Shown: in pieces, positions 11,161 through 63,412 of the stretch
Layout: each line of letters begins with the position of its first letter
How positions within the stretch are numbered: position 1 is the first letter of the stretch
From: the human T2T-CHM13v2.0 reference genome, Homo sapiens
DNA length: 64,000 nt
Strand: one strand, 5' to 3'
Assembly (NCBI RefSeq): GCF_009914755.1
Contig: NC_060925.1
The notes under the pieces: model-generated
What the model was told of the DNA's origin: nothing
Databases searched by the model: none
The model's input: the letters and a program-made list of their open reading frames with translations, nothing else
Translations under genes and position numbers: made by a program

Positions 11161-11562
11161 AACAGAGCAGAAGTGGCTGCTGTTCCTAAATTCCCTAAGT
11201 AAACTTACACTGCTTTTTCAAACTGGGAGATGAATCCACTAATAGGTTTTGAAATGAGTTTGGTGGATTTCTAATAAGAATAGGATAGCCTAGCCTAGTC
11301 TAGCATAACACAGCATGGCACAGAGGACGAACATTGTAGATTACTAAGGGTGAGTACTAACTTGTGAAAGTTTTGTTTAAGTTCTAGTAAGAGAAACAAG
11401 TGAGTGTAGTGGGTTGCGTGGTCAAAAAAGTGGGGAAGCCACCGCAACGAGGGGTGAGTCTGAGCCAAAGAGTGGCTCAGAGCTCCCCGCCCACCTCGTG
11501 CCGGGCCGTCCCTCCCGCTTGTCCCACCCTCACCGGCGCCGCGTCAGCCCCCAGGCCGCCTG

Positions 11563-11606
11563 CAGGTGTGCGCTCAGAACTAGCACGTGTGCCGGACACT
11601 ATTTAA
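11563..11606 (+). promoter_or_regulatory. CR2: CR2 core promoter: E-boxes CAGGTG (11563-11568) and CACGTG (11584-11589), TATA-like TATTTAA (11600-11606)
   Basis: Motifs read directly ~115-155 nt upstream of the ATG; GC-box-like sequences upstream; TSS inferred at ~11630-11640. Confidence 0.8.
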
Positions 11607-11719
11607 GGGCCCGCCTCTCCTGGCTCACAGCTGCTTGCTGCTCCAGCCTTGCCCTCCCAGAGCTGCCGGACGCTCGCGGGTCTCGGAACGCATCCCGCCG
11701 CGGGGGCTTCGGCCGTGGC

Positions 11720-11777
11720 ATGGGCGCCGCGGGCCTGCTCGGGGTTTTCTTGGCTCTCGTCGCACCGGGGGTCCTCG
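11720..11777 (+). CDS. CR2: CR2 exon 1 coding part (signal peptide MGAAGLLGVFLALVAPGVL-G)
   Basis: ATG in good Kozak context (ggcATGg), hydrophobic leader, donor G|GTGAG. Confidence 0.98.
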
Positions 11778-13999
11778 GTGAGCTGGGAGGGGGAGCACGG
11801 AGGTGGGGACGCGTCCCGGGCAGGGAAAGTTTCTGTGCCGCGATGCAAAGCAGGGGGCCAAAAGCGAGACGGTGGGGGCAGTGCTCGACGCGTGTCCGCC
11901 TCCCGCTAGCTTTGAGGGACCACTGCAATAAACCGCCTGGTCCTGATTGTCCCCACTGGCCCCTCCGGGAGCTGGGACCTCCAGAATTGGAGGCTGCGCC
12001 ACAGAGGGGCGCTGTCTGGTCGGCCCGGTGTGGCTGGCGGCGTGCGGGTGCTCGCGGTCTCCTGCCGGGCTCCCCGCCCCCAGGATTCTGCAGGTGCTCA
12101 TCGCTCTCTGGCCGGCGGTCAGCGCTACCGCTCGCCACGGGAAACCTACCCACTGCATGAGGCACCAGCTAGCCACGTGAGGCTGTTTCTGTACACCCGA
12201 ACCGCGCTCTTGCCCAGCAAAAGCGGCAGAACCTCGGCTCCCTTCCCTAAATAAGAGTAAGACCTGGTTCCCAAGCATGGGTCTCAGATTTTCTGAACTC
12301 TAATGTGATATTGGTAGAGATCCTAAACATTAACCATCCGTAGTTATTTTTGAGACATGGATTAAAACTATTGTTTTCTTCTTGTTATTAACCTACTGTA
12401 ATGGTGTGGACGTCCGCAAAGGTCTCATTCACCGTTTATTATATCTTTTTTTCCTCCAGATTGGCTTGATTTTAAAGAAAGATTATAATTAAGATTAGCG
12501 TCTCTTGGCTACAGGATGGGTCTAAGTTTCTAATTATCTCCACGGTACCGTGCATTCCTAGTTTATAAGACGTTTACTGTGTGCAGACCTCAATAACTGG
12601 GTGACTTTTGGCAAGTCATTTAGCTCCCTGATCTTCAGTTTCTTCATCTGTAAAATGAAACTAGTGATTAACTGGCCTTCCACCTCACTGAGCTGCCCTG
12701 AGCACAGATGAAACTAAGCAAAGAAAGTTGGATGTTAGTCGTTACTACTAAATATCAGTAATAAGCCTCCTGTACAGACTTGATTTTATGGAGCCAGCAT
12801 TTAAGCTAACAAGCTGGGTGTCCAATTGTTTCTATGGACATCCAGCTTATTGAGGTGTCTGGAATACAGCACATATTAGTTTATTACAACTTTTTGCTTT
12901 CCTGACATTTTACTGTCTCCTGACCCTTAAACCTTTCTCCAGACCATTATCTTCATCTCTTTTCTTTTTCTGCATATTAACTCCCTTTGAACAAATGTAT
13001 ATTCACACTTTTTCTAAGAGCAGAGTACGTCCCTGACTTCTCACCTATTTCTAAATTTCAAAGAGGATATTATCAACTGAAAATCAAATTCTTCACCAGT
13101 CCTGCCAATTCAGGGCCACAGCAGCAGCATCATGTAGGTCACTTAACTGGAGCCCCATGAAATACCAGGTCTACCTATCAGCCATTCAAGCTACTGTGCT
13201 TCTGTTGTTTGTCCATTTCTCATTTTTGTACCAGTATTCCCATCCTAAGCATTATAATTACCTGTGTAACAACCTCATCTCTTTTAAGAGATTTTGGTTC
13301 TTATGATTGGAAAGGTTAAAGAGTGACCTATAGGTCACTTTCCAATTATGAAAACAAAAAATTAAGAAATACATATATTTTCATTATTTCACTCCATTGT
13401 TCAAAAATCTAAAAGGCCTCCAGTGGAAGAAAATCTGGTGTCTTCAGCCTTTCTAGCCCTTTGGAATGGAATCTCACCGAAGCTCACACCCCCTGATTTC
13501 TCCAGCTGCCTGTCTTGTATGCGCTGCTCATGGTCTTCCCCACCTGTCTCCCATGGCTCATGCTTTGCCCACTCTCCACTGCTAACTTTTACTGCTACTG
13601 CATGCTCTCCACACATCATCTCTTGGCCAGTTCCTGCACTTGAGTGTGCTTAATAAACTACTAAAGTACCTTTATAAAATGTAGGTTCCTGGTTCCACCT
13701 CCCCCTCCAGAGGTTCATAGGTTTGGAGTTAGCACAGGAAAGCTGAGGTTTAACAATCACTCTAGAAGATTCTGCAACAAGTATCTATAGGGCACACTGC
13801 TATAAGCAAAGTCAATGGAAGCAAATTTCCTTTTTAGTGTTTTCCTATTTTTCCTTTTGTCTATTTGCATAAACAGTTTCAAATTTCCTACACTTCTAGA
13901 TTTTACTCAAGCCTTCAGTGGCCACCTAACTTTATCCTATGCTGAGAAAACAAAACCATGAAACAAGAATGCTCCCATTTTCTAATCAGCTACAAACCT

Positions 14000-15359
14000 A
14001 CCAACTTACAAACTTACCTCCATCTAGAATCAGATTTTGTTCTCCACTGCAGAAAACCTGCTGAGGCCTTCCCGTCACATTAGAATAAAACCCATACCCC
14101 TTATTCTCCAGTCTGAGGCCTTCTGCCTCTCCCTGAAATTCTCTGTACCCCACTCACTCTCTCTGCCCCAGCCACACTGGCCTTCTCTTTATTCTTTGAG
14201 CACAATTGCACTAGGTATTCTCTCTTTTGAAATGCTCTTCCTACAAATTATTCTTTGCCTGTCTCCTTGACATTCAAGGCTCAGCCCTCTGTTGTGCTTC
14301 TCTGACTCTTGTCTGAAGTATCCATATTCCAGGGTACTCTCCAATACAAAACTGTGTTCTATTTTCTACAGACCACCTATCACCATCTAAAACCTTCTTG
14401 CTTATTTATGTACCTGTTTGTTGTTTGTTCCCTCACTGGAATACAAGTTCCATGAGTGCAAGACCTTAATCTGCCTTATTTCCTGATTTGAGTTCCTATC
14501 AATAGCCTGTAATTTGGAATTCAATAAATATGAATTGAAATCTTGGTATGTTTCCTCCTATAACAATGAAAGAAGTATCCATTCTGCTGACAAATTCAGC
14601 TCCTTTTCCTGTATTCATGATCATGTTCCATACCCTCTTGCCTTTGCAAGGACTTTACTTCTGCAGATATCTCCTACCTTGCATCATCAATGTACCTCTT
14701 TCTGTATGATCATCCCCACCAGCATTTAAGTATACCCCAGGAAATCCTTTATGGACCTTCTCATGACCCACTGGAACTCCATTTTCCTGTCCCTCTTCTT
14801 GTTCTTCTCAGCAAAACTTTTCATTGACTACTTACTCAAATTTCGTTATCTCCTTCTCCACTTCAGACAGGCTTCTTCCCCACAGTCTCCTGAAGCTGTT
14901 TCTTGCAATGTCGCTACTGACCCTTATGCTGATAAATCCAATGGTCATTTTTCTATGTTAATCTTTCTCAGTCTTTCAGCAAAAACTGATGACTTCCTTT
15001 ACCTTGAAACCATTATCATTCTCATCTTCCAAACCAAGACACTCTTACCTGTTTTTTCCATACTTCCCTGTTGTCTCTTAGTCTTTTTTGTTCTATCTCT
15101 AAATATTAGAGGGTCTTGGGGCTCAGCCCTGAGCCTCTTCTTTCTTCATTTCTTCTTCCTAAAAAACCTCAACTCATCTTGTCTCATGGCTTTGAATACT
15201 ATTTATATGTTGATGACTCATATTTATTATCTATAGTTCTGTCCTCTCTCCTGAGCTGCAAACTGCCTACTTGGCATCTTGATGTGGATGCCTAGTGTGT
15301 TAGATATACCAAGTCTGAATGGAAATGATTCTGAACACAATTCCCTACCTCAAGGCCAC

Positions 15360-15418
<59 letters not shown>

Positions 15419-16225
15419 CTTTTTCAGGCTTTCCATCCTCAGAACAGGGTAATTCTATCAATTGTGTAGCCCAAGTCAGAAGTCTAGAAGTCAGGAATCC
15501 TCCCATTTCCTCAGCCCCACATGTAAAACAACAAAAAATCTTGCCAATTCTATTTCTAAAATATATCCACTGCTCAATCCTTTGCCAAGCTTCATTTTTT
15601 TTTTTTGGCCCTAAACTGTACTCTTTGCTTCTAAAAGTAAGCAGTTCGATCCACTCTCTACCCAATTGCCAGAATATTCCTTTAAAAATGTAAGTCAGGC
15701 CTTGTGATTCTCCTGCTTGAACTCTCCAATGACTTCTATTCAGGATAACATTCACATATCTGTGGTCTAAAAAGCCCTTCATGATCCCTCCTGCTGAGTT
15801 TTCTGACTTGATCGTGGACCATTCTGCTTTGCTCATTGCATCCCAGCCACACTTGCCTTCTGTCTGTCCCTGGAGCATACCAAATCCATTCCTCCTGTTA
15901 GGCCTCTGCCTAAAATACTTGTACCCAGCAATTTGCCTGGCTGCTTCCTTCTTCCTTCTTGTCCTTCAGTCACAACTTAAATGTTGCCTTTTCACAGGCC
16001 TTCCTTAACCATCATAACTGAAGTTGCATGCCACCCTGTCCCTTCTCCTTCCAGTGCATTACATTGTGACATATCACTCTATTTCATATTTCATGTTCAG
16101 CACCTTCTTATTTATTTCCTGGTATCTATTTACAGTCTGTCTCTTTCTGTTGGATTATAAATTCTATGAGGGTGGGAACCTTGTCTCTGATGTTCACAGA
16201 TACATCTCCTGTGCTTAGGACTGAA
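14000..16225 (+). mobile_element. LINE-2 fragments with a (CA)n run at ~15358-15416
   Basis: Pyrimidine-rich L2 body; L2 3' ends near 14440-14540 and 16140-16225. Confidence 0.65.
16172..16178 (+). promoter_or_regulatory. CR2: RBPJ/CBF1 motif GTGGGAA in intron 1 (candidate CR2 intronic silencer site)
   Basis: Exact core motif ~4.5 kb into the gene. A CBF1-dependent intron-1 silencer is known for CR2, but identity with this site is inferred. Confidence 0.45.
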
Positions 16226-16226
16226 C

Positions 16227-16689
16227 TTTGGTTAATATGCATAACTGTTGTTAAACTAAATAACAAACAGGGAAAGACCCTAAAAAAAAAAGATATTTGT
16301 TTGGGAATAGAACATTGCAATGGGAATATGTGTGTGATTATGAATTGTGTGTATATTCAAGGAAGTAAAAGAAGACAAAGGTTTTTAAAGGAAAAATATG
16401 AGGATTACATAATTGTTTTAGAATAATTATCCTTGGCTACAAAGACCAATAACAAGGGTGATGCCAGTTTGAGGTTATACAGGCAGATGCCGGAAGGATG
16501 TTCTTGTAGGGTTGCAGTGGCTTTTGTGCACGGTTGTGGTTTTTCAGTCTTTTATGATAGTTTGGGTTAACAGGTATACAAGCATGAGAACCCTATTTTC
16601 ATGGCCTTCCCTGGCTTTCTGAAGGTGTTTTTTGTTGTTTTTTTTTTTATTACATTAGTGACTCTATTTTGATTCTGACAACTTTCACA
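16227..16689 (-). mobile_element. ERV1-class solo LTR (MER65-like)
   Basis: Reverse complement begins tgtgaaagttgtcagaatcaaaatagagtcac; TG...CA termini. Confidence 0.6.
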
Positions 16690-18929
16690 TCATCATTCAA
16701 AACTTGCTTATCAAATAGGCAGGAAACCCAGTATTAAGGTATTTGATTATATGAATTATCAGTCTCAATAATGATTTTCCCTCCTACCTGCTTTCTGACT
16801 AAAATTTCAGTTTTATTTTTATTATCCTATATGTTTGTTTTTCATCCATTTCAAATGGATTTCCAAGCCATTCCAGGTAAAGTCCCTGGGCCCAAGTAAT
16901 TAAATATATCTCTGTTCATTTAACTCAGAAACTGCTTCGCCTGTTAGTTTTAAACATGGTTGGAAGGATATGTGTCTGAATGTCAAGTCACCATCTTTGA
17001 TCTTCAATCCAGTCATGATCTCCTCTGAGTTTTACTCCTGGCTACAGAAAGATGTGAAGAGGGTCCAGTGACCCTCAAGAAAATTTGTATTACTTGATGG
17101 CCCATGGCTTAACCTTCCCTTTTCTGATATGATCTGCCTTGTGACTTGGGATTCTGGCTTTCGTTACTAATGAGGATTGATGTTCCCAAAGGAAGATAGC
17201 CCTTAAGTCTCCTTATTGGAAATGAGACCCTCCCATTTTTTATCATCCAGAAAGTGTGATCCGTATCTCCTTTCATCATGGAAAGTTATGCTGTGAAGCA
17301 CCCTTCTGCTTTTGCTATTTCTGGATCTTCATTCCATCTTCGTCCATGTCATTGCCACTGATTAAATCGTGTAAATTTAAATTGGTTTTCCAGCTTGTGG
17401 AGGATAATTTGATATTGTCCTTATTTACATTTGATAATTACAGATTAAGTCACTTGACTAGAGTCACTAGTACAAGTAGTATCAGGATCATGAAGTTTGT
17501 CTTCATTGAGGTCAAACCCTGATATTCCTTATAGAATCTTGCTATTTTGCACAGAGTAAGCACTTGGAGACTTTTGTAGTTGTTAATGGAGAAAACTAAA
17601 GAAACTGAGGAAATAAATAGAAGGGGACCTATAGTGATATCTGGCTCCCAATAATGATGCCTATTCTTAGAACCAGTCTTTGTGACTTCTCCAGTAGTAG
17701 TTTGGGGTCACAGCTAAGGTCTGGCTGTGTTTTGGGAGCTTTGTGTGTGACCTTGTGTCAGTTCATCCATGTTTATACTTTGACTTTCACCCGTACCTGT
17801 CTCAGACCTGTTTGAAAAAGGAGATTATAAATTTGATATTTAAATACACTGCTATTCTAGGAGGGCCTTACAACTGAGTACTTTCTTTTTTTGCCTGGAC
17901 TACCATCTGATCTGGAAGAAGAGTTAACTTCTTGTTTTCTGCTTGTCAGTTTAGGGCGTTGAAACTTGAGCTCGTTCTCATACATAGAAAAATGACTTTT
18001 CCAGCTATATCCCTAAGTGTATCATTGCTATAGTTTCTTACCTATCTCCTAGAATAACTTCTGTTCCATTATTAATAATAATATTGTTACTTTAAGTCAC
18101 AGGAATCTGTGTTGAAATGACTGTCCCTTTATCTAGTTCCCATCAGAAAGTATTTACTGAGTTCTCTTTGGTGGCATATTACTCTACTAGATTAACAGAA
18201 TAAAATAATGAAGAATAATCAACATATTTTCTCCTCTCTAGGCATTAACGGTTTAATAGCTAAGATAGTTATGTAAATTCATTAAAGTAATTTTCAGGAT
18301 CATATGTGTACTGAGCTTTTACAAGATCTCTTATATACTTTAGTTTCTTATGCTATCCTGGGAAAGTTTGTATTTAAAGATTTTTACCTTTTTGTCCCAC
18401 AAATTCACAAATAGCGTACATTAGTTATGTGCAGTTTTTTTGTGTATAAATAAGACCTCATTGAAGCTGGGAAAAATATTAATATCCGCTCCCCCTACCA
18501 CCCTTATAAAAAAAAATCAAAACATATGTAATCATCCTTCAAGGCCCTTGCCACATGCCTTTCCTGTTTTCCCCAGACTCTGACCTCACTGTGAAAAAAC
18601 AAGCAAACAAACTAAAACCACTAATTTTTACTTGTAAGGGTGAAGGAGATGGAACAATTCTGAGGATTTTCTGAAATTTTATGAAAAATTACTTTCTCCA
18701 TCTCTGAAGTCTACCCTAAAAATTCTCTGAACCTCTGAGCTTATTTCTGTGTATATTCACCCTTACTGCAATGATATGCATTCTTCATTCCATAAAATAT
18801 TGCCCTATTTTAGACTTTCATTCTAAAGATCAAAGTTTTCAGGATAATTGGTAACAAGGCAGAAGCAGAGAAGAGGTTTTAGCCTCTCTTGGTTTTTATG
18901 TTTCTGTAGCCTTTGTCTCAGGTCCTCAG

Positions 18930-19109
18930 GTCAGGGTAAGTTTCTGCCAAGGTTTCCTTTTGCTAAGCCTAAAATTCAGAGTAACCAATCTTAAGTTTGC
19001 TGTTGAGATATCTTGCAAATACAAATGCTTTCTTGGGTATATCAAGAGGCATTCTTTATCACCTCCCTAGAGATCTTCAAGTGGTCAGATGCTCAGCAGT
19101 TCTGTAAAG
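18930..19109 (+). pseudogene. pseudo-exon 1: decayed CR1-like SCR1 (GQGKFLPRFPFAKP...KWSDAQQFCK)
   Basis: AG/GT flanks; 180 nt, same as CR1 exon 2 in this window; Cys1>Gly, Cys3>Ser, +1/-1 frameshifts with TAA at 18992-18994. Confidence 0.88.
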
Positions 19110-20451
19110 GTGAGTAATCCTGTAATAGAGGCATATTTGGGTCTGTCGCTGTATCTGGATGAGATAACATGTTATGTTTAAGATAAAAGACCAGTAAATT
19201 CACATGTCATCTCAAGTGAAGAGGGCTCCTGAGTGCTCCATGCTTCCTTTTACTCCTAGGGGCACTGGGTATGAGGGTTAAGTCATGATAGCTGGCCAAA
19301 CCTATTCATCCTGTGATCTTTATGACTTTGATCTATGGTATCCATACTGTGTTAGGGTGAGGTTAGAAGTTAGAGACAAGAGATGTTAATATTACCTCAT
19401 CCTCATCCCATTCAATTCAAAAAATACTTTTAAGTAACTACTAGATACTAAGCTCTAGACCAGACAGTGGGGCCTGGGAGTGACATAAAAATGAATCTGA
19501 TAGTCTTTGCCTTTGAGAAACTCCTACACTAGTTGTAAAGGCCGACTCTTAAATATATATTGTACTATGAGGTAGTTCTCTTATTTAAGAAGTGCTATGA
19601 GGTCATAGAGAAATAAATCATAAATGCTACCTAGAAGAATTAGAGAACTATAGGCCCTCTGAGCAGAGGAAACAGCATTTGCAAAAGCATAAGTGTGCAA
19701 GAACATGATGTCTCTGGAAAAAATCAGTGTTGTTGGAGTATAGGCTACATAGTGAGGAATGGTAGTTGATTAAATGGATTGGAGCTTACTTGTAAAAAAA
19801 TATATGCATTTTTTCCCTATAAACAGTGGTAAGTCATAGTAAGTTTTTAAATGTGCAGAGTGGCATGACCACATTTGTGTTTTAGAAAGATAAATGTGCA
19901 GTAGTATAGAAGGTGTACCAGCCCAAGGGAGAACAATTAGAAAAGTAAATTATGTCATTCAGTGATCCAATGAGAGACTACTGCAATGACAAAATAGTTG
20001 GTTTGGAGAGAGATTTCTGGAGTCCAGTCACTAAACTTCAGTAAGTAATTGAATGAAGAGAAGAGAGTAGAGGATGAGTTAGAGGATGAGTTACAAAAAG
20101 GAAATGATCACTGTGAGATTTTTAAGGCAGAAGACTTGGTAGATGATATCATAGATTAACAGAATATGTATAAAAATGGAAAATGAAGACTATAAGTTAT
20201 AACTGACCACAAATAAAGTTGGCATCCATGCACAGAAATGCAGACTGTGTGCATTAAACAAGTAGTGTTCTAGAGTTGACTGATCCGTTGGAAAGTTTTG
20301 TAAATGTAAGAATTTCTGTGAGTAAACATAAGCAGGCCTGTCAGCAAGTCCAGTCAGGTTGAGATTTAATATAAAACACAAAAAGTCTCCAAAAAGTCTC
20401 CTGAATCCCAGCCTCAAATTCTGTTTGGGTTGATTTGGTTTTCTTTTGTAG

Positions 20452-20551
20452 ATAAATCATGTGTGAGTCATAGAGAACTCCTTTAGGACTCTGTGATTAC
20501 ACACATGGGTATTGCATTTGGGTTGACAATGACATATTCTTGTAATAAAGG
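20452..20551 (+). pseudogene. pseudo-exon 2: first half of split SCR2 (KSCVSHRELL*DSVITHMGIAFGLTMTYSCNKG)
   Basis: 100 nt, phase 1/2 like CR2 exon 4; ttttgtAG acceptor and GG|GTGAG donor; in-frame TAG at 20484-20486. Confidence 0.88.
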
Positions 20552-20952
20552 GTGAGTTGGCAGGAGACAGTTCCTGGGTACATGGATACCAGAACAGCAG
20601 TTCCAACCAGAAACCATCACTCTTCCAAAAGAGATCTGAGTAATTGCCACATACTTTTTAAAATAAATAAGCAAAAAGGAATCACCTCCCTGATCCACTC
20701 CAGAGACACTGCTTCAAGATTACCAGCTAGAGAGGATCCCTAGAAGAGAAGGAAGTTTTGGCTGCTCTCTTCCAGTTTTAAGTCTCCAGTGCTACTGACC
20801 AGGAGCTTGAATTTCATTTGGCTTTAAATTGTATGAGTCCTTAATCTGTCACCCCTGCTTGTCATAAATGATATTCTATTCTCTGCTATTCTTTCAGTAG
20901 AGAAAGAACTAAGTTTTTCTAAAATGTAAGTCTAGCTGGGAGATGATCACTC

Positions 20953-21028
20953 TTTATTTTTATTTTTATTTTAAGTTCTGGGGTACATGTGCAGGATGTG
21001 CAGTTTTGTTACAGGGTAAACGTGTGCC
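20953..21028 (-). mobile_element. very short L1PA 3' terminal fragment
   Basis: T-rich tail followed by ttaagttctggggtacatgtgcaggatgtgcag..ttgttaca..taaacgtgtgcc. Confidence 0.8.
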
Positions 21029-21056
21029 GCGAGATTTCTTATCTCTTTGTCTTTAG

Positions 21057-21142
21057 ATATCTACTCTTTGGTGACTCATCTGCTACATGTATTATCTCAG
21101 ACAATATTGTAACCTGGGATAATGACATGCCTTTTAATGAAT
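21057..21142 (+). pseudogene. pseudo-exon 3: second half of split SCR2 (YLLFGDSSATCIISDNIVTWDNDMPFNE)
   Basis: 86 nt, phase 2/1, ctttAG acceptor and T|GTAAGT donor, open frame, final Cys replaced by Asn. Confidence 0.9.
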
Positions 21143-21699
21143 GTAAGTAAAACAATCTCTTTATTGCACCCTATTTAATTCCTCTTGTCCCCTTCCAGAG
21201 GGAAATTGAGCATCTGCACACCAAAGTGAGTAGCCAGGAGGGTTTACACTTGGTTTGAGTAGCTCTAGGCACACAGCTATGACTTACCCATCTTCCTCAT
21301 GGCCCCCAATCCTACCACACGTTCCTTTGTTTACTGTCCTTTGATTATAAGTTATTTCATAGTGAGTAAATGCTTACATCTAAAACATTCCAGGAGATTA
21401 CACACTGCCAACTTTATTCCATGCAAAAAGTAAGCCACCCTAGGTCCCTTCTATAACAATTTATCTGTGGTCTGGGGCGGGGACTGGTGACCAGCTCATA
21501 GCTTTTCGGTTTTTATCAGCCAGTTCCATATATCTTTTGACCTTGCTACTTCCTATTTAGAATCATCTTTGAGATCAGGATACAGAATTTCAACAAAATA
21601 GGTAAATTGTAGGCTGAGTTGCAGTTTGGATTGCAAGAATGAAGAGAAAATTCTCAGAAAGTATAATATTCTCTCTTTCCCCACCTACTCCTTAAAAAG

Positions 21700-22093
21700 G
21701 TATTCCTTGTAAGTCACTCCCAGCCATCCCCCATGGGACTTTGACAGCAGCAGCAGGGAGAGGGGTTTGCTATGAAATCATCAGTGCCATATTGGATGTA
21801 ATAGGGAAAAGCTGTTTGACCTCTTGGATGAGAAGTCAATGCATTGCACCAGCAAAGATAATCAAGTTGATGTCTGGAGCTCTGGAGCAACCCTCCTCTT
21901 CAGTGTATTACTCTTACTTGAATGCTCAATTATAGAAGTTGAAAATGGAGTTGTGGAATCTGGATTATGTTCATTTTTTTAAAATGATACATGATATTTA
22001 AGTGTAAGCTTGGTTTTACCCTGAAAGGCAGCAATGTAATATGGTGTCAACTAAACAGCAAACAGAATCCTCTACTGCCAAAGTGCTTCAGGG
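21700..22093 (+). pseudogene. pseudo-exon 4: decayed double SCR3-4 (IPCKSLPAIPHG...REKLFDLLDEKSMHCTSKDNQVDVW...IFKCKLGFTLKGSNVIWCQLNSK..PLLPKCFR)
   Basis: AAG acceptor, G|GTGAG donor, 394 nt (cf. 387-408 nt double-SCR exons); several frameshifts, a stop and an 8-bp duplication. Confidence 0.92.
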
Positions 22094-22210
22094 GTGAGTT
22101 GGGCTGAAACTTCAGGATCTAGAAATAAAACAAGGTTTTTCTGGGAAATAGATATATGGTACCTATGGAAAGAGCAGAAGGAAGATAGTATATGTGGTTG
22201 AGTTTTCTAG

Positions 22211-22549
<339 letters not shown>

Positions 22550-23685
22550 TAAAGAGTTTAAAAGTAAACTTTGAAAGTAATATCTAAATGTTGCAGATGT
22601 AGGACTTTTTCTTCTTTTGTATTTTGGGGCAGTGCTAGATCTGTGTTATTGTAGGGGAAATTAAAAGATGCTTTTTTAAAAAAGCAGATAGCACCAAAGT
22701 CAATGATTAGAGATTTTTTCATACATATATATATATAATTATCACATCTTATCCATAGGTGTGCTTTGAACATATATATGCCACTCTTCTCTGTCTTCTG
22801 GAATGCAGACCAAAGATGTTAAATTGATTCAGTTGAGTATATATTATACTGCAGATTCTATATGTATAAAGACAACAGTTCTCGAAAGTTACCCTTACTG
22901 AAACCAAGTATAGCACTGATGTGATGAAACAGTTTGGCTGTATCTTCTTATGTCAGTTTTCACTGAAGACCTCCTCTTGGAGCCAAAGGGAAGTTAACTG
23001 AAAGTTCTAGAGGTTGGCAATTTTCCCTTTATTCTGAGACTCCCTCAGAAAAGGCGTGCATAACAAAGTAAATGTAAACAATATCCTTCATGGTTATTAG
23101 GACAAGTAAATGAAGAATATGAGGCCATTATTCAAAACCTCTGTTCACTTCCTGTGGCTTTTTCAAAGTGTTCCAGCCTCAAGTCAGGACAAATCACCTG
23201 TACTGAGGCTCTAGCATCTTCAGCAGCAGGACCAAAAGTGGTCATCTCAGCCTGTACCCCCAGTTGTGTGTTTGAAGCAGCCATTGAATAATTAGTATGT
23301 TCCAGGTATTGTACTTTCTCTGTTCATGTACTTTTAGCACTGGATTCTCACTATACCTTATGAAGTAGTTTGCGTTATACTATAGACTAAGAAACTGAAG
23401 CTTAAAGAGAGTAAGACTTGCCTGAGGTCACACAGCTATTGAATGACCGTGGGGAGTTGAAACTAGGTCCACTGAGCTCAAATTTCCCTAATCCATGGTA
23501 CCTCCCCACATGTAACTATCATGCCACTAATATGTTATTTTCATGTGCTGAATTTGCCTTTTGTTTCATTATTAAAATTGATTAGACTCAGAACTTTTGG
23601 ATATATTCTTTTCATTATTATTGTTTGGTCAAGATGATTTATGTTGATCTGTTTGCTGAGGATGAAGAAAAAGGTAAGAATTTAG

Positions 23686-24300
<615 letters not shown>

Positions 24301-40300: not shown

Positions 40301-42394
40301 GTGGAAGCTACAGAATACTAATATGTGCAAAGGATACATTTTTAACAAAGCATACCGTCAGGTGTTGGCCTCGGATGTTATGTGTGCATAGGTTCGTGAG
40401 TCTTTGTACATGCTAGTGTTAGGGCGGATAATCCAATGAAGTCTTACCAACTCTCAGGTAGCTCCGAGTGGGGAGATGACCAAGTCATGCCACCTAAAAC
40501 ATGTCACCAAAAAGCTCCAGCAAAATTTCTTTCACGTGCCAAGTCCCCTGCATCTATCATTTACCCTGCCACCAGTGCCATCTGATGCCATGGCTCAGTT
40601 ATGTAATTCCTAGAATAGGCTCAGACATGAAGGGGTTGCACTGAAACTATGTACTGAGGGTATCTACGAACCTGGGCAGTTTGTTCTAGGCTGGAGGCGG
40701 GAGGGTGAGGGCTGCCTATGGGGTTCTGGCTGTCCTGTACAGTTAGCGTGTACTTAGAGTGTAGAGTTTACCAGAGTGTGTACCACACAACCCTGCTTTC
40801 ATGAATGACTTCAGAAAAAAAGGGTGTTCTATGGCAAATAAGATTTGGACATACTGCACACTGTTTTTTTTTCTTGTGGAGAATCACAAGGACCATGAGA
40901 ATATTTAATAAGAGGTTTTTTGCTATCAAGAGGACAGGATTTCCAGGACTTGGTGACATGCTGGATGTGGGGAGAAGGAGGCACATAGAATGGCTCACAT
41001 GAAGGCGATGAGGTGGACCCCCTGACTCACTAAAAGAGGAGAGGGGCAGGATTTGTGGGGGAAGATGAGGAGTTCGGTTCTGACCTGGTACTTTGAGGTA
41101 CTCATGATTTAGGGCTTGGGAGAAGGGTCTGGACTCGGGTGGGTGACACTTAAATCACAATGAAAGCTGTGGAACCAAAAAGAACAGAACAGATAAAAAT
41201 TGGGATGAGAACAGCCCTCAGAAGAACAGTAATGTTCAAAAGGCAGAAAGTGAAGGAAGAGAGGCAGGGGGAAAACTAGCAGAGAGTAGCGTCACAGAAT
41301 TCAAGGAGAAAAGGGTCTCAAAAAAAATTAGGGATGTTATTTGCAGGGCCTTCCTCATAGGAAGTCACAAGATAATTTCAGCCAAGAGGCATTAGAAATG
41401 TAAATACATAGAAAATACAGTCTCTATCTCTTTCCTTCATGCTACTGAGTTTGCTATCAGAGCACTGCATGTGTATAAAAATTTGCAAATTTGGGGAATG
41501 CTTACAAGTGCAAATAATTTATAATATTCCAGTCTAATTATTGTTTATTAATATGATTATATCATGTACTATACTTAAGTGCCTCAACTGATATGAAGCA
41601 AACATACCTGTTTAACCAGATTCCTAGTTGCCATTCATTTATTTCCATTTGCTAACCCACTTCAATTGATTTTCCAATAATTGATAAAGACACTTGAATG
41701 GCCTGAAATGCTTTTTTAAATGAGATGAGTAATCATTTAAAAATGAATGTCTAGTGACAATATTAAATATTTTGAAAAGCCATCTAAACACTTGAAAGAC
41801 ACTATGCTATTCTTTTCTAGTCATCTAAGATATTGTAACAAAGCTTAAATCTCACATTGACCTAAAAATTACTGTTTTATAATCTTCTTAACATATCTCC
41901 TGTACACGGAACTCTTCAATATTCTAGTGAGTGACATGCTGTCAGTGTCTTTAGCAGTATTCTTTCTTCCCCAGTAATTTTGTATTACGTTATTTTAGAG
42001 CTTTACATGGTAGTATAATCACATTTTATTGTCTTTTAGTAATTCTGGCAAAGTGGTTTTAGAAGCACAATGAAATATGTGTACTTTCAAAGAAGGAAAG
42101 TAAAAACATTCTCTTCAAACTCGTTTAAAGCTTTTAAGTCAGACTAGAACATTGAGTCCCAAAAGGGTAAAGTTATGATCTAAAATAAGAACTTATTTTT
42201 GCTTCTTTTCTTCAATTTGGAAGTTGTAGTTGTTAGTCATTAAGCGTCCTGGATCCTAGGGTAAAGCTGCTTAGTGTCAGCCTCTGACTTGAACACTTAC
42301 AAGCCTAGATCATTCATTTTTTATGTGCCTTTCCAAAAAATGGAGTTACAGTGTTTACACTTCATAGGATAAAAACAATAAAAATGAAATCATC

Positions 42395-58537: not shown

Positions 58538-60661
58538 ACATTGAAGGTTGCCTAGAGAAGGAAGTGGATGTTTGGATGGATTACAGAAGGGCATGAGGGA
58601 ACTCTGTGTGGGTGGGATGTATGATGGAAACGTTTATTGTCTTCATTTTGGTGATGGTTTCACAACGCATACATATGTTATAAGTAATCGAATTGTACAC
58701 TTCAAATACTCATCAATCATTGTATGTAATATATCTTGATAAAGCTATAAAAACTTTTAAAATTATGGTAGGTCTTCAGTTTGTGGATTTTATATTAATA
58801 TATTTGTCATAGGAACTAGTCACAATTGAGGGATTGGTAATAAAGGAGAGAAAGGAAACTACATCAAGCTTTCTTTGTTGAAGGCTCATATATTCCTTTT
58901 TTGAGCTATTATACAACTTTGCTTTTTATAATTACCTATACTATTCATATACTACTATGCAGGTAAGAATATTATGTAATTAAGGGGAAGGAACTTCTTT
59001 CCAAGAATGGTTCATTCAATTTGCTTTGTTACTTTAGGTCTCATTCCTTCCTCTCGTTGCAAGCTTTGCTGTGACATTTACCCTCTCTCAATACAGCTTT
59101 TGGCGCTAGGCACTTCACATGGAATCTCTTCCTTTGTCCGGCATCAATGGATAAGACAAATATCAAAATTGTATTTCATCCCACATATCAACTAGAGGAA
59201 AGGTGAATGCATAACACTGAAAATAACAGCAACTGTTTTACTCAGTGTTTTTTTTTTTTACAGTATCCTCAAAGTGCTGTTATCTATCAAAATCAGCTGT
59301 GAAAATTTTTAAAAATAGACTCCTGGGCCCTAACCTAGACCCACTAAATCAGAGATTTGGGGGACATAGCTTGGATTCTTGATTTTTTTGAGTTTTATAA
59401 GTAATTCTTCATTTTTTGTTCATTGCAACAAATATGCATTGAGTTCTTATAATTGAGTGTTAAGCACCAGGACTAAGTATTAATTTAGAGGTACAAAAAA
59501 ACACATCATCTCTTGCCTTTAAATTATGCATATCTAATATCTATTGAGAGAAATAGATACTTCTAAAAGCACACAAAGATAAAAAGCACAAATTGTAATA
59601 ACAAACAATTATTGATATGAAAGGAAAAGCAAAGTGTCGGACTAGAAATTATTATAGGGTGGGGCAGAGGGAAGTAGTTTAGATTCCAAATCCCTAAGAG
59701 GGTCAGGGAAGGCTTCAGATGAGATTGGGTGTGTTCAGGGTGGTATGGCCATAGGCAGGCTGGGGAAGGCTTCTATAAGAAAGTGACATTTTAGCAGATG
59801 CCTGAAGGAAGAATTGAAGTCAGAGTGAAGATAAAATTGCGTCACATAGAAGGAATGTCATAGACGGGAAAAATGTGTGTCTTTGGGAAACTGAAAAAGG
59901 GGAAAGGGCCACACCTTGGTGAGGGGACCAAGTGGCACAAGATGAGGCAGGGAACATAGACAAGGGCTTCCTTGCTTAACAACTGCTGGCTTAATAAAGC
60001 AAATGTGTGATGATGGATACAGGCTGTCTGGGAAAAATAAGTAAGAAATATGAGCTTTCTTGGAGCATCATCCTTTGCTTCAGTAGAAAGCACAGAGTTA
60101 GGCTTCCAATTCTGACTAAAGCCATTGACAACAGGGAAAAGGCAACCTTAGGAATTCTCCTCTCTGTCCGGGGTCCCGTGGGCACTATGATGGAGCTCAT
60201 GAGATGCAGATGAGAAGTCCCAGGCTGAATCCGGGGCACATTCACTCAGGAGAGCTGAGGTCACCAGTCACTGAGGTCATCCAGTGCATTCCCGACAGCA
60301 TAGGCTCATTCCAAGCTAGTTCTGCAAAGGAGCAGAAAATGAACTCTTGGAAGCAAAGCAAGCACTCCCACTTTAGCGGAATAATCGAATTTAACTCTTA
60401 GAAGTCCCCTTACCCTTTTCTAAGGGTAATAATCGTAAGTATAATTTATGAAGTGCCTTCTGTGTATGTGGCAGCATATACTACTTTTGATTCTCCCTGC
60501 AAACCTGGTAGGAAAATATTATTCCCTTTATGAAGATGAAACTGAGGCTCAGCAAGATTAAGCGGTTTGCCTAAGACCTCATAGCCATTAAGTAGAAGAC
60601 ATTGGGTTCAAGATTCAATCTATGAACCCAACATTTTTAATACTATATACCATTCTCTTTT

Positions 60662-63232: not shown

Positions 63233-63412
63233 GTCAATGCAATGCCCCAGAATGGCTTCCATTTGCCAGGCCTACCAACCTAACTGATGAGTTTGAGTTT
63301 CCCATTGGGACATATCTGAACTATGAATGCCGCCCTGGTTATTCCGGAAGACCGTTTTCTATCATCTGCCTAAAAAACTCAGTCTGGACTGGTGCTAAGG
63401 ACAGGTGCAGAC
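63233..63412 (+). CDS. CR1: CR1 exon 2 (SCR1: [59 protein letters not shown]); gene continues beyond the window
   Basis: ctccAG acceptor, C|GTAAGT donor, 180 nt; absent from the ORF track but reads as the CR1 N-terminal SCR. Confidence 0.97.

What the first reader, a model, noticed from the sequence alone, without database searches (positions are those of the whole stretch)
18930..22093. Fossil CR1-like cassette: four decayed SCR pseudo-exons in CR2 intron 1
Seen: four AG/GT-bounded segments of 180, 100, 86 and 394 nt that translate, allowing stops and frameshifts, into SCR/CCP motifs in the order single, split-a, split-b, double. Established: mouse makes CR1 and CR2 from one Cr2 gene by splicing in six extra N-terminal SCRs; the peptides here (KWSDAQQFCK, GDSSATCI.SDN.V.WDNDMP, REKLFDL..EKS..CTSKDNQV) closely resemble my memory of mouse CR1 SCR1-4. 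Inference: these are the dead C3b/C4b-binding exons of an ancestral dual CR1/CR2 gene, whose function passed to the separate CR1 gene just downstream. I recall such remnants being reported, so this is probably not new, but the ORF track misses it entirely.
Basis: partly seen in the sequence, partly recalled or inferred. Interest (0 to 1): 0.8.

Follow-up and report, generated by a model that had tools for sequence, protein, structure and literature searches.

The report
Dead CR1-type exons inside human CR2
The first intron of the human CR2 gene still holds four decayed exons that once let the gene also make a CR1-type complement receptor, as mouse Cr2 still does; this is real but was reported in 1990.

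Summary
CR2 intron 1 holds four AG/GT-bounded segments on the + strand: 18930-19109 (180 nt), 20452-20551 (100), 21057-21142 (86) and 21700-22093 (394).

They match SCR1, SCR2a, SCR2b and SCR3-4 of P0007 in order. P0007 is an unnamed 21-SCR CR2 orthologue with a CR2-type leader. E-values run from 5e-07 to 2.5e-18, and 148 of 244 residues are identical along a frameshift-corrected path.

A tree and an AU test (p 0.0004) group the cassette with the N-terminal SCR1-4 of such dual-type CR2 proteins, not with CR1-type repeats.

The segments are dead. They carry six frameshifts, three stops on the corrected path, three lost cysteines and two lost tryptophans. None of 15 inclusion combinations reads through into CR2 exon 2.

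Only four of the six extra SCRs survive. No SCR5 or SCR6 trace lies in 22094-23839.

All eight splice dinucleotides are intact.

The relic matches the title of Holguin et al. 1990 (J Immunol 145:1776), seen only as a citation. The finding is correct, well supported and already known. Interest is low.

The parts
11629..11777 (+). CR2 exon 1 (leader). It ends in phase 1 and is the upstream neighbour of the cassette.
   Evidence: Annotation supplied with the finding. The leader translation is 14/19 identical to the leader of P0007.
18930..19109 (+). Pseudo-exon 1, an SCR1-type single exon of 180 nt. It has two compensating frameshifts (18992 and 19050). Read straight, these put TAA and TGA in frame. 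Cys1 is changed to Gly (18935), Cys3 to Ser (19064) and one Trp to Cys (19014).
   Evidence: 34 of 58 residues are identical to P0007 SCR1. 105 of 182 nt are identical to the real CR1 SCR1 exon.
20452..20551 (+). Pseudo-exon 2, the first half of SCR2 (100 nt, phase 1 to 2). It has an in-frame TAG at 20484-20486.
   Evidence: 18 of 32 residues are identical to P0007 81-112. The donor has the same GG|GTGAGT form as the real CR2 split-a exons.
21057..21142 (+). Pseudo-exon 3, the second half of SCR2 (86 nt, phase 2 to 1). It is open, but Cys4 is changed to Asn (21136).
   Evidence: 21 of 28 residues are identical to P0007 114-141. The best PDB domain is CR1 94-119.
21700..22093 (+). Pseudo-exon 4, a double exon for SCR3-4 (394 nt, not a multiple of 3). 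It has frameshifts at 21738, 21884, 21913 and 21992, stops TGA at 21773 and TAA at 21980, and a Trp to Gln change at 22063. All eight cysteines are kept, but across different frames.
   Evidence: 75 of 126 residues are identical to P0007 142-273.
22094..23839 (+). The rest of intron 1, where SCR5 and SCR6 exons would be expected. None is detectable. It includes a repeat-masked stretch at 22216-22549.
   Evidence: best score 16.5 bits against shuffled mean 17.1 and maximum 20.0. Searches also found nothing here.
23840..24226 (+). CR2 exon 2 (SCR1-2), the downstream neighbour of the cassette.
   Evidence: Annotation supplied with the finding.

Best explanation
These are four unprocessed pseudo-exons. 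They are the decayed remains of the SCR1, SCR2 (two exons) and SCR3-4 exons that, in an ancestral dual-product CR2 gene, were spliced between the leader exon and the CR2 SCR1-2 exon to give a 21-SCR, C3b-binding CR1-type receptor. Mouse Cr2 still does this.

In the human lineage the cassette is no longer coding. The CR2 transcript joins exon 1 (ending at 11777) directly to exon 2 (starting at 23840). Any inclusion of a relic exon would put a stop codon within 31 to 98 codons of the start and should send the RNA to nonsense-mediated decay.

Shown here: homology, order, exon architecture, orthology to the N-terminal block of a 21-SCR CR2 orthologue, and loss of coding capacity.

Inferred: that the exons are skipped rather than included and degraded, and that the CR1-type function is now supplied by the separate CR1 gene.
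For: - **Collinear matches.** There are significant + strand matches to P0007 SCR1-4, with 148 of 244 residues identical on the frameshift-aware path.
- **Nature of P0007.** It has a CR2-type leader (14/19 identical) and a CR2-type C-terminal 15 SCRs (58% identity).
- **Ranking.** The cassette scores 57% and 284 bits to P0007 21-273. Every other block scores 43% or less and 214 bits or less.
- **Tree.** The clade {cassette, P0007 21-273, P0020 279-532} has support 100/99. The 14 CR1-type blocks form a separate clade at 100/98. The AU test rejects the cassette grouping with the CR1-type clade (p 0.0004).
- **Relaxed constraint.** The cassette's end branch is 0.5 against 0.088 for P0007.
- **Exon architecture.** Sizes and phases match: 180 nt like CR1 exon 2, and the split at profile position 33|34 like the real split exons.
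- **No coding capacity.** 0 of 15 inclusion combinations are open.
- **Orthologous flanks.** P0018 is an open frame across an intact equivalent of pseudo-exon 4 in another genome. Its flanks align to the human intron on both sides.
- **Literature.** Holguin et al. 1990, title only. PMC2119091 abstract. PMC7487969 discussion passage. PMC12165806 passage.
Against: - No named mouse Cr2 sequence could be used. P0007 is an unnamed gene prediction, so its 21-SCR structure is not experimentally anchored here.
- Only four of the six expected SCRs are present.
- All eight AG/GT dinucleotides, and near-consensus donors, survive despite heavy decay inside the exons. A pure neutral-relic model does not predict this, although my rough estimate puts it within chance.
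- The cassette's raw identity to P0007 (57-61%) is no lower than that of functional CR2 to P0007 (58%).
- Generic Sushi profiles mostly fail on the pieces.
- The clade for the AU test was named after the tree had been seen.
- No transcript data were available, so skipping is inferred.
Confidence: 0.93

Rival explanations
1. The relic exons have been co-opted. With intact splice sites, they act as poison or decoy exons whose occasional inclusion, followed by nonsense-mediated decay, tunes CR2 output. Alternatively they form part of the regulatory activity of intron 1.
For: All four acceptors and donors are intact, and three acceptors have good pyrimidine tracts. Every inclusion gives an early stop. 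Intron 1 is reported to hold a silencing domain and to be transcribed, with ESTs aligned to it (PMC4717392 passages).
Against: The reported regulatory sites lie at the 5' end of the intron. The SLE-associated variant is 97 nt into the intron, and the RefSeq silencers are at 11468-12187. Both are about 7 kb upstream of the cassette. No junction or conservation data were available. By a rough estimate, survival of 16 bases is within chance.
Confidence: 0.05
2. The cassette is a secondary copy, by duplication or gene conversion, of CR1 or CR1L exons that landed in the CR2 intron. On this view it is not the orthologue of the dual gene's N-terminal exons.
For: The PDB CR1 chain is the best or only significant solved-structure match for segments 1, 3 and 4. 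CR1 lies only about 6 kb downstream of CR2.
Against: Pseudo-exon 1 has only 58% nucleotide identity to CR1 exon 2. Protein identity to the CR1-type blocks is 41% or less, against 57% to P0007's N-terminus. The tree and AU test reject the grouping. The position, strand and leader context are what the dual gene predicts.
Confidence: 0.015
3. The segments are still coding alternative exons of a rare human CR2 isoform.
For: The splice sites are intact. Pseudo-exon 3 is open.
Against: 0 of 15 combinations are open. Six frameshifts, three stops, three lost cysteines and two lost tryptophans lie on the corrected path. RefSeq lists no such exon in the annotation supplied with the finding.
Confidence: 0.005

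Closest known systems
N-terminal CR1-specific exons of the rodent-type dual Cr2 gene (21-SCR product), represented here by the unnamed library protein P0007
   Same: The position between the CR2-type leader and CR2 SCR1 is the same, as are the strand, the SCR order and the single / split / split / double layout. Identity is 57-61% over SCR1-4 and the two fall in the same clade.
   Different: The human copy is dead, with frameshifts, stops and lost Cys and Trp residues. It also lacks recognisable SCR5 and SCR6.
The CR1- and Crry-like exons of human CR2 described by Holguin et al. 1990 (J Immunol 145:1776)
   Same: The title describes CR1- and Crry-like exons lost from human CR2 transcripts through CR2 gene mutations. 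That is what is found here.
   Different: I saw only the title in a reference list. Neither the paper nor the Jacobson & Weis 2008 review is held. I therefore cannot say whether its coordinates, number of exons or lesions agree with mine.
Human CR1 long homologous repeats (PDB chain 2q7z_A; library protein P0004)
   Same: The SCR types and exon layout are the same. CR1 exon 2 is also 180 nt. The second SCR of the repeats is split over two exons (PMC2189269 abstract).
   Different: Identity is only 37-41% and the blocks fall in a separate clade. Within CR1, the relic resembles the later repeats more than the first. Segment 4 scores 41.2 bits at residues 1505-1568 against 28.6-30.8 at the earlier repeats. 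Segment 1 aligns to 457-509, 907-959 and 1359-1412, and no domain is reported at the first SCR.
Crry (PDB chains 1ntj_A and 2xrb_A)
   Same: It is the second-best solved-structure match for segment 3 (20.1 bits at residues 97-122), and it matches segment 4.
   Different: The PDB sequences could not be retrieved as records. Crry was therefore not placed in the tree under its own name.

Membership tests
SCR / CCP / Sushi domain (Pfam PF00084) | Match to the family profile above the curated threshold | tested here: inconclusive
   Only 1 of the 6 straight-frame pieces passes: 21988-22095 at 24.0 bits against a cut-off of 20.7. The intact CR1 SCR1 exon, used as a control, scores 33.6. After frame correction, a profile built from the window's own SCRs gives four ordered domains at 3.0, 21.2, 12.1 and 28.5 bits.
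SCR / CCP / Sushi domain (Pfam PF00084) | Four conserved cysteines and one tryptophan per roughly 60-residue unit | tested here: not met
   Against P0007, SCR1 has lost Cys1 and Cys3, SCR2 has lost Cys4, and SCR4 has lost its Trp. SCR3 and SCR4 keep all their cysteines, but only across different frames. The units are decayed SCRs, not foldable ones.
CR1-type N-terminal cassette of a dual CR1/CR2 gene | Lies between the CR2 leader exon and the CR2 SCR1-2 exon, on the coding strand and in SCR order | tested here: met
   together with the annotation. P0007 has a CR2-type leader directly followed by the cassette.
CR1-type N-terminal cassette of a dual CR1/CR2 gene | Exon layout single, split-a, split-b, double, with phases 1-1, 1-2, 2-1, 1-1 | tested here: met
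   The split at profile position 33|34 comes. The phases follow. Segment 4 has 394 nt, so its net frame is broken.
CR1-type N-terminal cassette of a dual CR1/CR2 gene | Nearest relatives are the N-terminal SCR1-4 of 21-SCR CR2 orthologues | tested here: met
   One search gives the ranking, another the clade at 100/99, and the AU test at p 0.0004.
CR1-type N-terminal cassette of a dual CR1/CR2 gene | Six SCRs | tested here: not met
   Only SCR1-4 are found. There is no SCR5 or SCR6 signal above shuffled controls in 22094-23839, or anywhere else in the window.
CR1-type N-terminal cassette of a dual CR1/CR2 gene | Open reading frame spliceable into CR2 | tested here: not met
   0 of 15 combinations are open. 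The exons are therefore pseudo-exons.
CR1-type N-terminal cassette of a dual CR1/CR2 gene | Alternative splicing into transcripts | not testable with these tools
   No transcript data were available. RefSeq lists no such exon.
Processed pseudogene | Intronless cDNA-like copy | tested here: not met
   The four pieces are separated by 1342, 505 and 557 nt and keep their splice sites.

The most novel reading that the evidence does not exclude
The relic exons are not fully inert. Because all eight splice dinucleotides and strong donors survive, they may be used at a low level as poison or decoy exons that couple CR2 splicing to nonsense-mediated decay, and so contribute to the cell-type-specific control assigned to intron 1. 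A linked question is whether loss of the SCR5-6 exons was the founding lesion.
Probability: 0.05. Interest if true: 0.45.

Novelty: already known. Interest (0 to 1): 0.15.

Why it matters
The relic is a physical record of how primates divided CR1 and CR2 functions between two genes, while rodents still make both from one. That bears on how far mouse complement-receptor models carry over to humans.

In practice it is an unannotated source of spurious open reading frames. Library proteins P0010 and P0018 look like such predictions from other genomes. It is also a set of splice-competent-looking intronic exons that should be kept in mind when interpreting CR2 intron 1 variants.

None of this is new in principle.

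Tried and rejected
- **Word-indexed protein database.** A search with the longest open piece, asking for longer proteins, gave 25 candidates and none scored. That database gave no usable comparators.
- **PDB chain retrieval.** PDB chains cannot be fetched as records. CR1 and Crry from the PDB were therefore used only through the printed alignments.
- **Papers.** Jacobson & Weis 2008 (PMC3366432) and Holguin 1990 (PubMed 2144008) are not held. For the 1995 and 1992 J Exp Med papers only the abstract and references are held, and there is no supplement. The content of the 1990 report could not be read.
- **Literature searches.** Four were run. They found the citation and one sentence on primate CR2, and no open description of the relic exons.
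- **Rfam scan of 11700-23900.** No family matched.
- **CR2 and the CR1 N-terminus as probes.** On their own they detect only pseudo-exon 4 clearly. The in-window CR1 SCR1 protein gave no significant tblastn hit to pseudo-exon 1, because of its frameshifts. The nucleotide alignment did detect it.
- **SCR5/6 relics.** A search with three probes found nothing above shuffled controls.
- **Rejected readings.** I rejected chance similarity, a processed pseudogene, a recent CR1 copy and a live alternative exon set. The reasons are given under the rival explanations and the membership tests.
Full report
**What is there.** The window is the human CR2/CR1 locus, and the finding lies in CR2 intron 1 (11778-23839).

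| Segment | Coordinates | Length |
|---|---|---|
| 1 | 18930-19109 | 180 nt |
| 2 | 20452-20551 | 100 nt |
| 3 | 21057-21142 | 86 nt |
| 4 | 21700-22093 | 394 nt |

Each follows an AG and is followed by GTGAGT or GTAAGT. The donor of segment 2 has the same GG|GTGAGT form as the real split-a exons of CR2. Three acceptors have good pyrimidine tracts. The acceptor of segment 4 sits behind 'aaaaag'.

Read in the phase set by CR2 exon 1, segment 1 has TAA and TGA in frame, segment 2 has a TAG, and segment 3 is open. The quoted peptides are present.

**Is it more than chance?** Yes.
- Within the window alone, segment 4 matches CR2 SCR9-10 across a frameshift, with a joint E of 9.6e-12.
- Segment 1 aligns end to end with the real CR1 SCR1 exon (63233-63412, also 180 nt). 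105 of 182 columns are identical, z is 15.8 against 500 dinucleotide shuffles, and it is the best-scoring place in the intron on either strand.
- A profile built from the window's 17 intact SCRs, run over all six frames of the 64 kb, finds + strand non-exon matches at segments 2, 3 and 4. The only other matches are two weak ones, at 59991-60041 (E 0.06) and on the minus strand at 41776-41814 (E 6).
- That profile places segments 2 and 3 at positions 21-33 and 34-55. This is the same break as in the real split exons.

**Solved structures.** The residue ranges below are in the numbering of the full-length CR1 chain 2q7z_A. Calling them long homologous repeats is my own reading of the roughly 450-residue periodicity and of recalled nomenclature.
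- **Segment 3:** best match CR1 94-119 (20.4 bits), then Crry chain 1ntj_A 97-122 (20.1 bits). 27 distinct sequences scored E of 1 or less.
- **Open middle of segment 4:** best match CR1 1505-1568 (41.2 bits). Residues 152-211, 602-661 and 1052-1111 score 28.6 to 30.8 bits. CR2 scores 25.9. Nine sequences scored E of 1 or less.
- **Tail of segment 4:** it matches CR1 1575-1607 and CR2 607-638 equally, at 19.6 and 19.7 bits.
- **Segment 1 with X at its stops:** CR1 is the only significant hit (E 9e-07). The aligned ranges are 457-509, 907-959 and 1359-1412, and no domain is reported at the first SCR.

Results against the reading:
- The head of segment 4 finds only factor H.
- Segment 2 alone is closest to DAF (E 0.019), and CR1 scores only E 0.27.
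- Pfam's Sushi model passes on just 1 of 6 pieces.

No named mouse sequence was available. An exhaustive HMMER search of an unnamed protein library with the open middle of segment 4 gave 38 hits.

One of them, P0007, has 1412 residues and 21 SCRs. Its C-terminus is like that of human CR2, and its residues 397-1346 are 58% identical to human CR2 21-902. Its leader is 14/19 identical to the human CR2 leader and unlike the CR1 leader. It is therefore a CR2 orthologue with six extra N-terminal SCRs directly behind a CR2-type leader. That is the architecture published for the mouse 21-SCR Cr2 product (PMC2119091 abstract).

tblastn of its first 400 residues against the intron gives five collinear + strand matches:

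| P0007 residues | Window position | Identity | E-value |
|---|---|---|---|
| 20-79 | 18929-19108 | 45% | 7e-11 |
| 81-113 | 20454-20552 | 58% | 5e-07 |
| 114-141 | 21058-21141 | 75% | 8e-09 |
| 156-239 | 21740-21991 | 48% | 2.5e-18 |
| 202-274 | 21880-22095 | 43% | 5e-14 |

All 38 proteins, searched against the whole window, hit non-exonic DNA only at these four places.

**Lesions.** A frameshift-aware alignment to P0007 gives 34/58, 18/32, 21/28 and 75/126 identical residues, 148 of 244 in all.
- **Segment 1:** frameshifts at 18992 and 19050. They compensate each other, and the two straight-frame stops lie between them. Cys1 is changed to Gly (18935), Cys3 to Ser (19064) and one Trp to Cys (19014).
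- **Segment 2:** TAG at 20484.
- **Segment 3:** Cys4 is changed to Asn (21136).
- **Segment 4:** frameshifts at 21738, 21884, 21913 and 21992. Stops are TGA at 21773 and TAA at 21980. A Trp is changed to Gln at 22063. There are also several codon indels.

For all 15 subsets of the four segments spliced between exon 1 and exon 2, the first stop falls at codon 31 to 98. None is open.

**Orthologue or copy?** The frame-corrected cassette (X at every break, built and used only in scripts) is 57% identical (284 bits) to P0007 21-273. The next block is P0020 279-531 at 43% and 214 bits. The CR1-type blocks of P0004 reach 37-41%.

The tree had 25 rows: the cassette, 22 blocks with at least 120 bits and at least 80% coverage, and 2 CR2-type outgroup blocks. 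116 HSPs were not used. It puts the cassette with P0007 21-273 and P0020 279-532 at support 100/99. A separate clade of 14 CR1-type blocks has support 100/98. The cassette's end branch is 0.5 against 0.088 for P0007.

Forcing the cassette into the CR1-type clade costs 33.5 log-likelihood units (AU p 0.0004). The caveat is that the group was named after the tree had been seen.

So the relic is the orthologue of the dual gene's N-terminal exons, not a copy of CR1. [quoted passage not shown]

**What is missing.** P0007 has SCR5 and SCR6 at residues 275-394. Those regions, and the same regions of the closer relatives P0017 and P0022, find nothing in 22094-23839. The best score is 16.5 bits, against a mean of 17.1 and a maximum of 20.0 for 20 shuffles. 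Nothing turns up elsewhere in the window either. Only four of the six SCRs survive recognisably.

**Relatives in other genomes.**
- **P0010** (68 aa, 88-90% identical) reads in the same shifted frame as human around 21884-21913. It has Lys where human has the TAA at 21980, and it needs no shift at 21992. Some lesions are therefore shared with that genome and at least two are not.
- **P0018** is an open frame across an intact equivalent of segment 4. Its flanks align to the human intron upstream (21444-21700) and to the read-through 'GELG' downstream.

**Mechanism.** Shown: homology, architecture, orthology and loss of coding capacity. Inferred: the exons are skipped in CR2 splicing, and any inclusion would be removed by nonsense-mediated decay.

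The survival of all eight splice dinucleotides is the one feature a plain neutral relic does not predict. My rough estimate from the branch length puts it within chance, so I give the co-option reading about 5%.

The reported regulatory sites of intron 1 lie about 7 kb upstream. The SLE-associated variant is 97 nt into the intron (PMC4717392 passages), and the RefSeq silencers in the supplied annotation lie at 11468-12187.

[quoted passage not shown] I saw it only in the reference list of PMC2191854. The paper and the 2008 review are not held, so I cannot compare details.

The four literature searches found no open text describing the relic further.

Verdict: the finding is correct and already known. 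The additions here are T2T coordinates, an explicit lesion list, the absence of SCR5-6 and a formal orthology test.

Noticed in passing
window 18928-22099 (the eight splice sites of the four pseudo-exons): All four AG acceptors and all four GT donors survive, and the donors are near consensus, although the exon bodies carry six frameshifts and three stops. By a rough estimate this is within chance, but it is the one feature a neutral relic does not predict.
   Followed up: partly
window 22216-22549: A repeat-masked stretch begins about 120 nt downstream of pseudo-exon 4, in the interval where SCR5 and SCR6 exons would be expected. From recall it looks Alu-like. It might mark a rearrangement that removed those exons.
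   Followed up: no
window about 20955-21035: A short stretch just upstream of the acceptor of pseudo-exon 3 looks, from recall only, like a fragment of the 3' part of an L1 element. It is not in the list of masked stretches of 100 nt or more, and it was not tested.
   Followed up: no
window 59991-60041 (+), in CR1 intron 1: There is a weak match to the window-derived SCR profile (E 0.06, profile positions 25-41). None of the 38 library proteins hits it at E of 1e-3 or better, so it is probably chance.
   Followed up: partly
PDB chain 2q7z_A compared with window 18932-19108 and 21776-21982: The relic resembles the later repeats of human CR1 more than the first one. Segment 4 scores 41.2 bits at residues 1505-1568 against 28.6-30.8 at the earlier repeats. 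Segment 1 aligns to the first SCR of the second, third and fourth repeats, and no domain is reported at the first.
   Followed up: partly
library proteins P0022 and P0020: P0022 runs from SCR1 straight into SCR3 with no SCR2, and has lost a cysteine in SCR3. P0020 has SCR1-4 followed by an SCR6-like unit with no SCR5. Either these are gene-prediction gaps, or the cassette is partly decayed in other lineages too.
   Followed up: no
window CR2 exons compared with P0007: Functional human CR2 is only 58% identical to the CR2 part of P0007. That is about the same as the dead cassette's 57-61% identity to P0007's N-terminus. Raw identity therefore does not separate the relic from the fast-evolving live gene. 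The tree's branch lengths do.
   Followed up: partly
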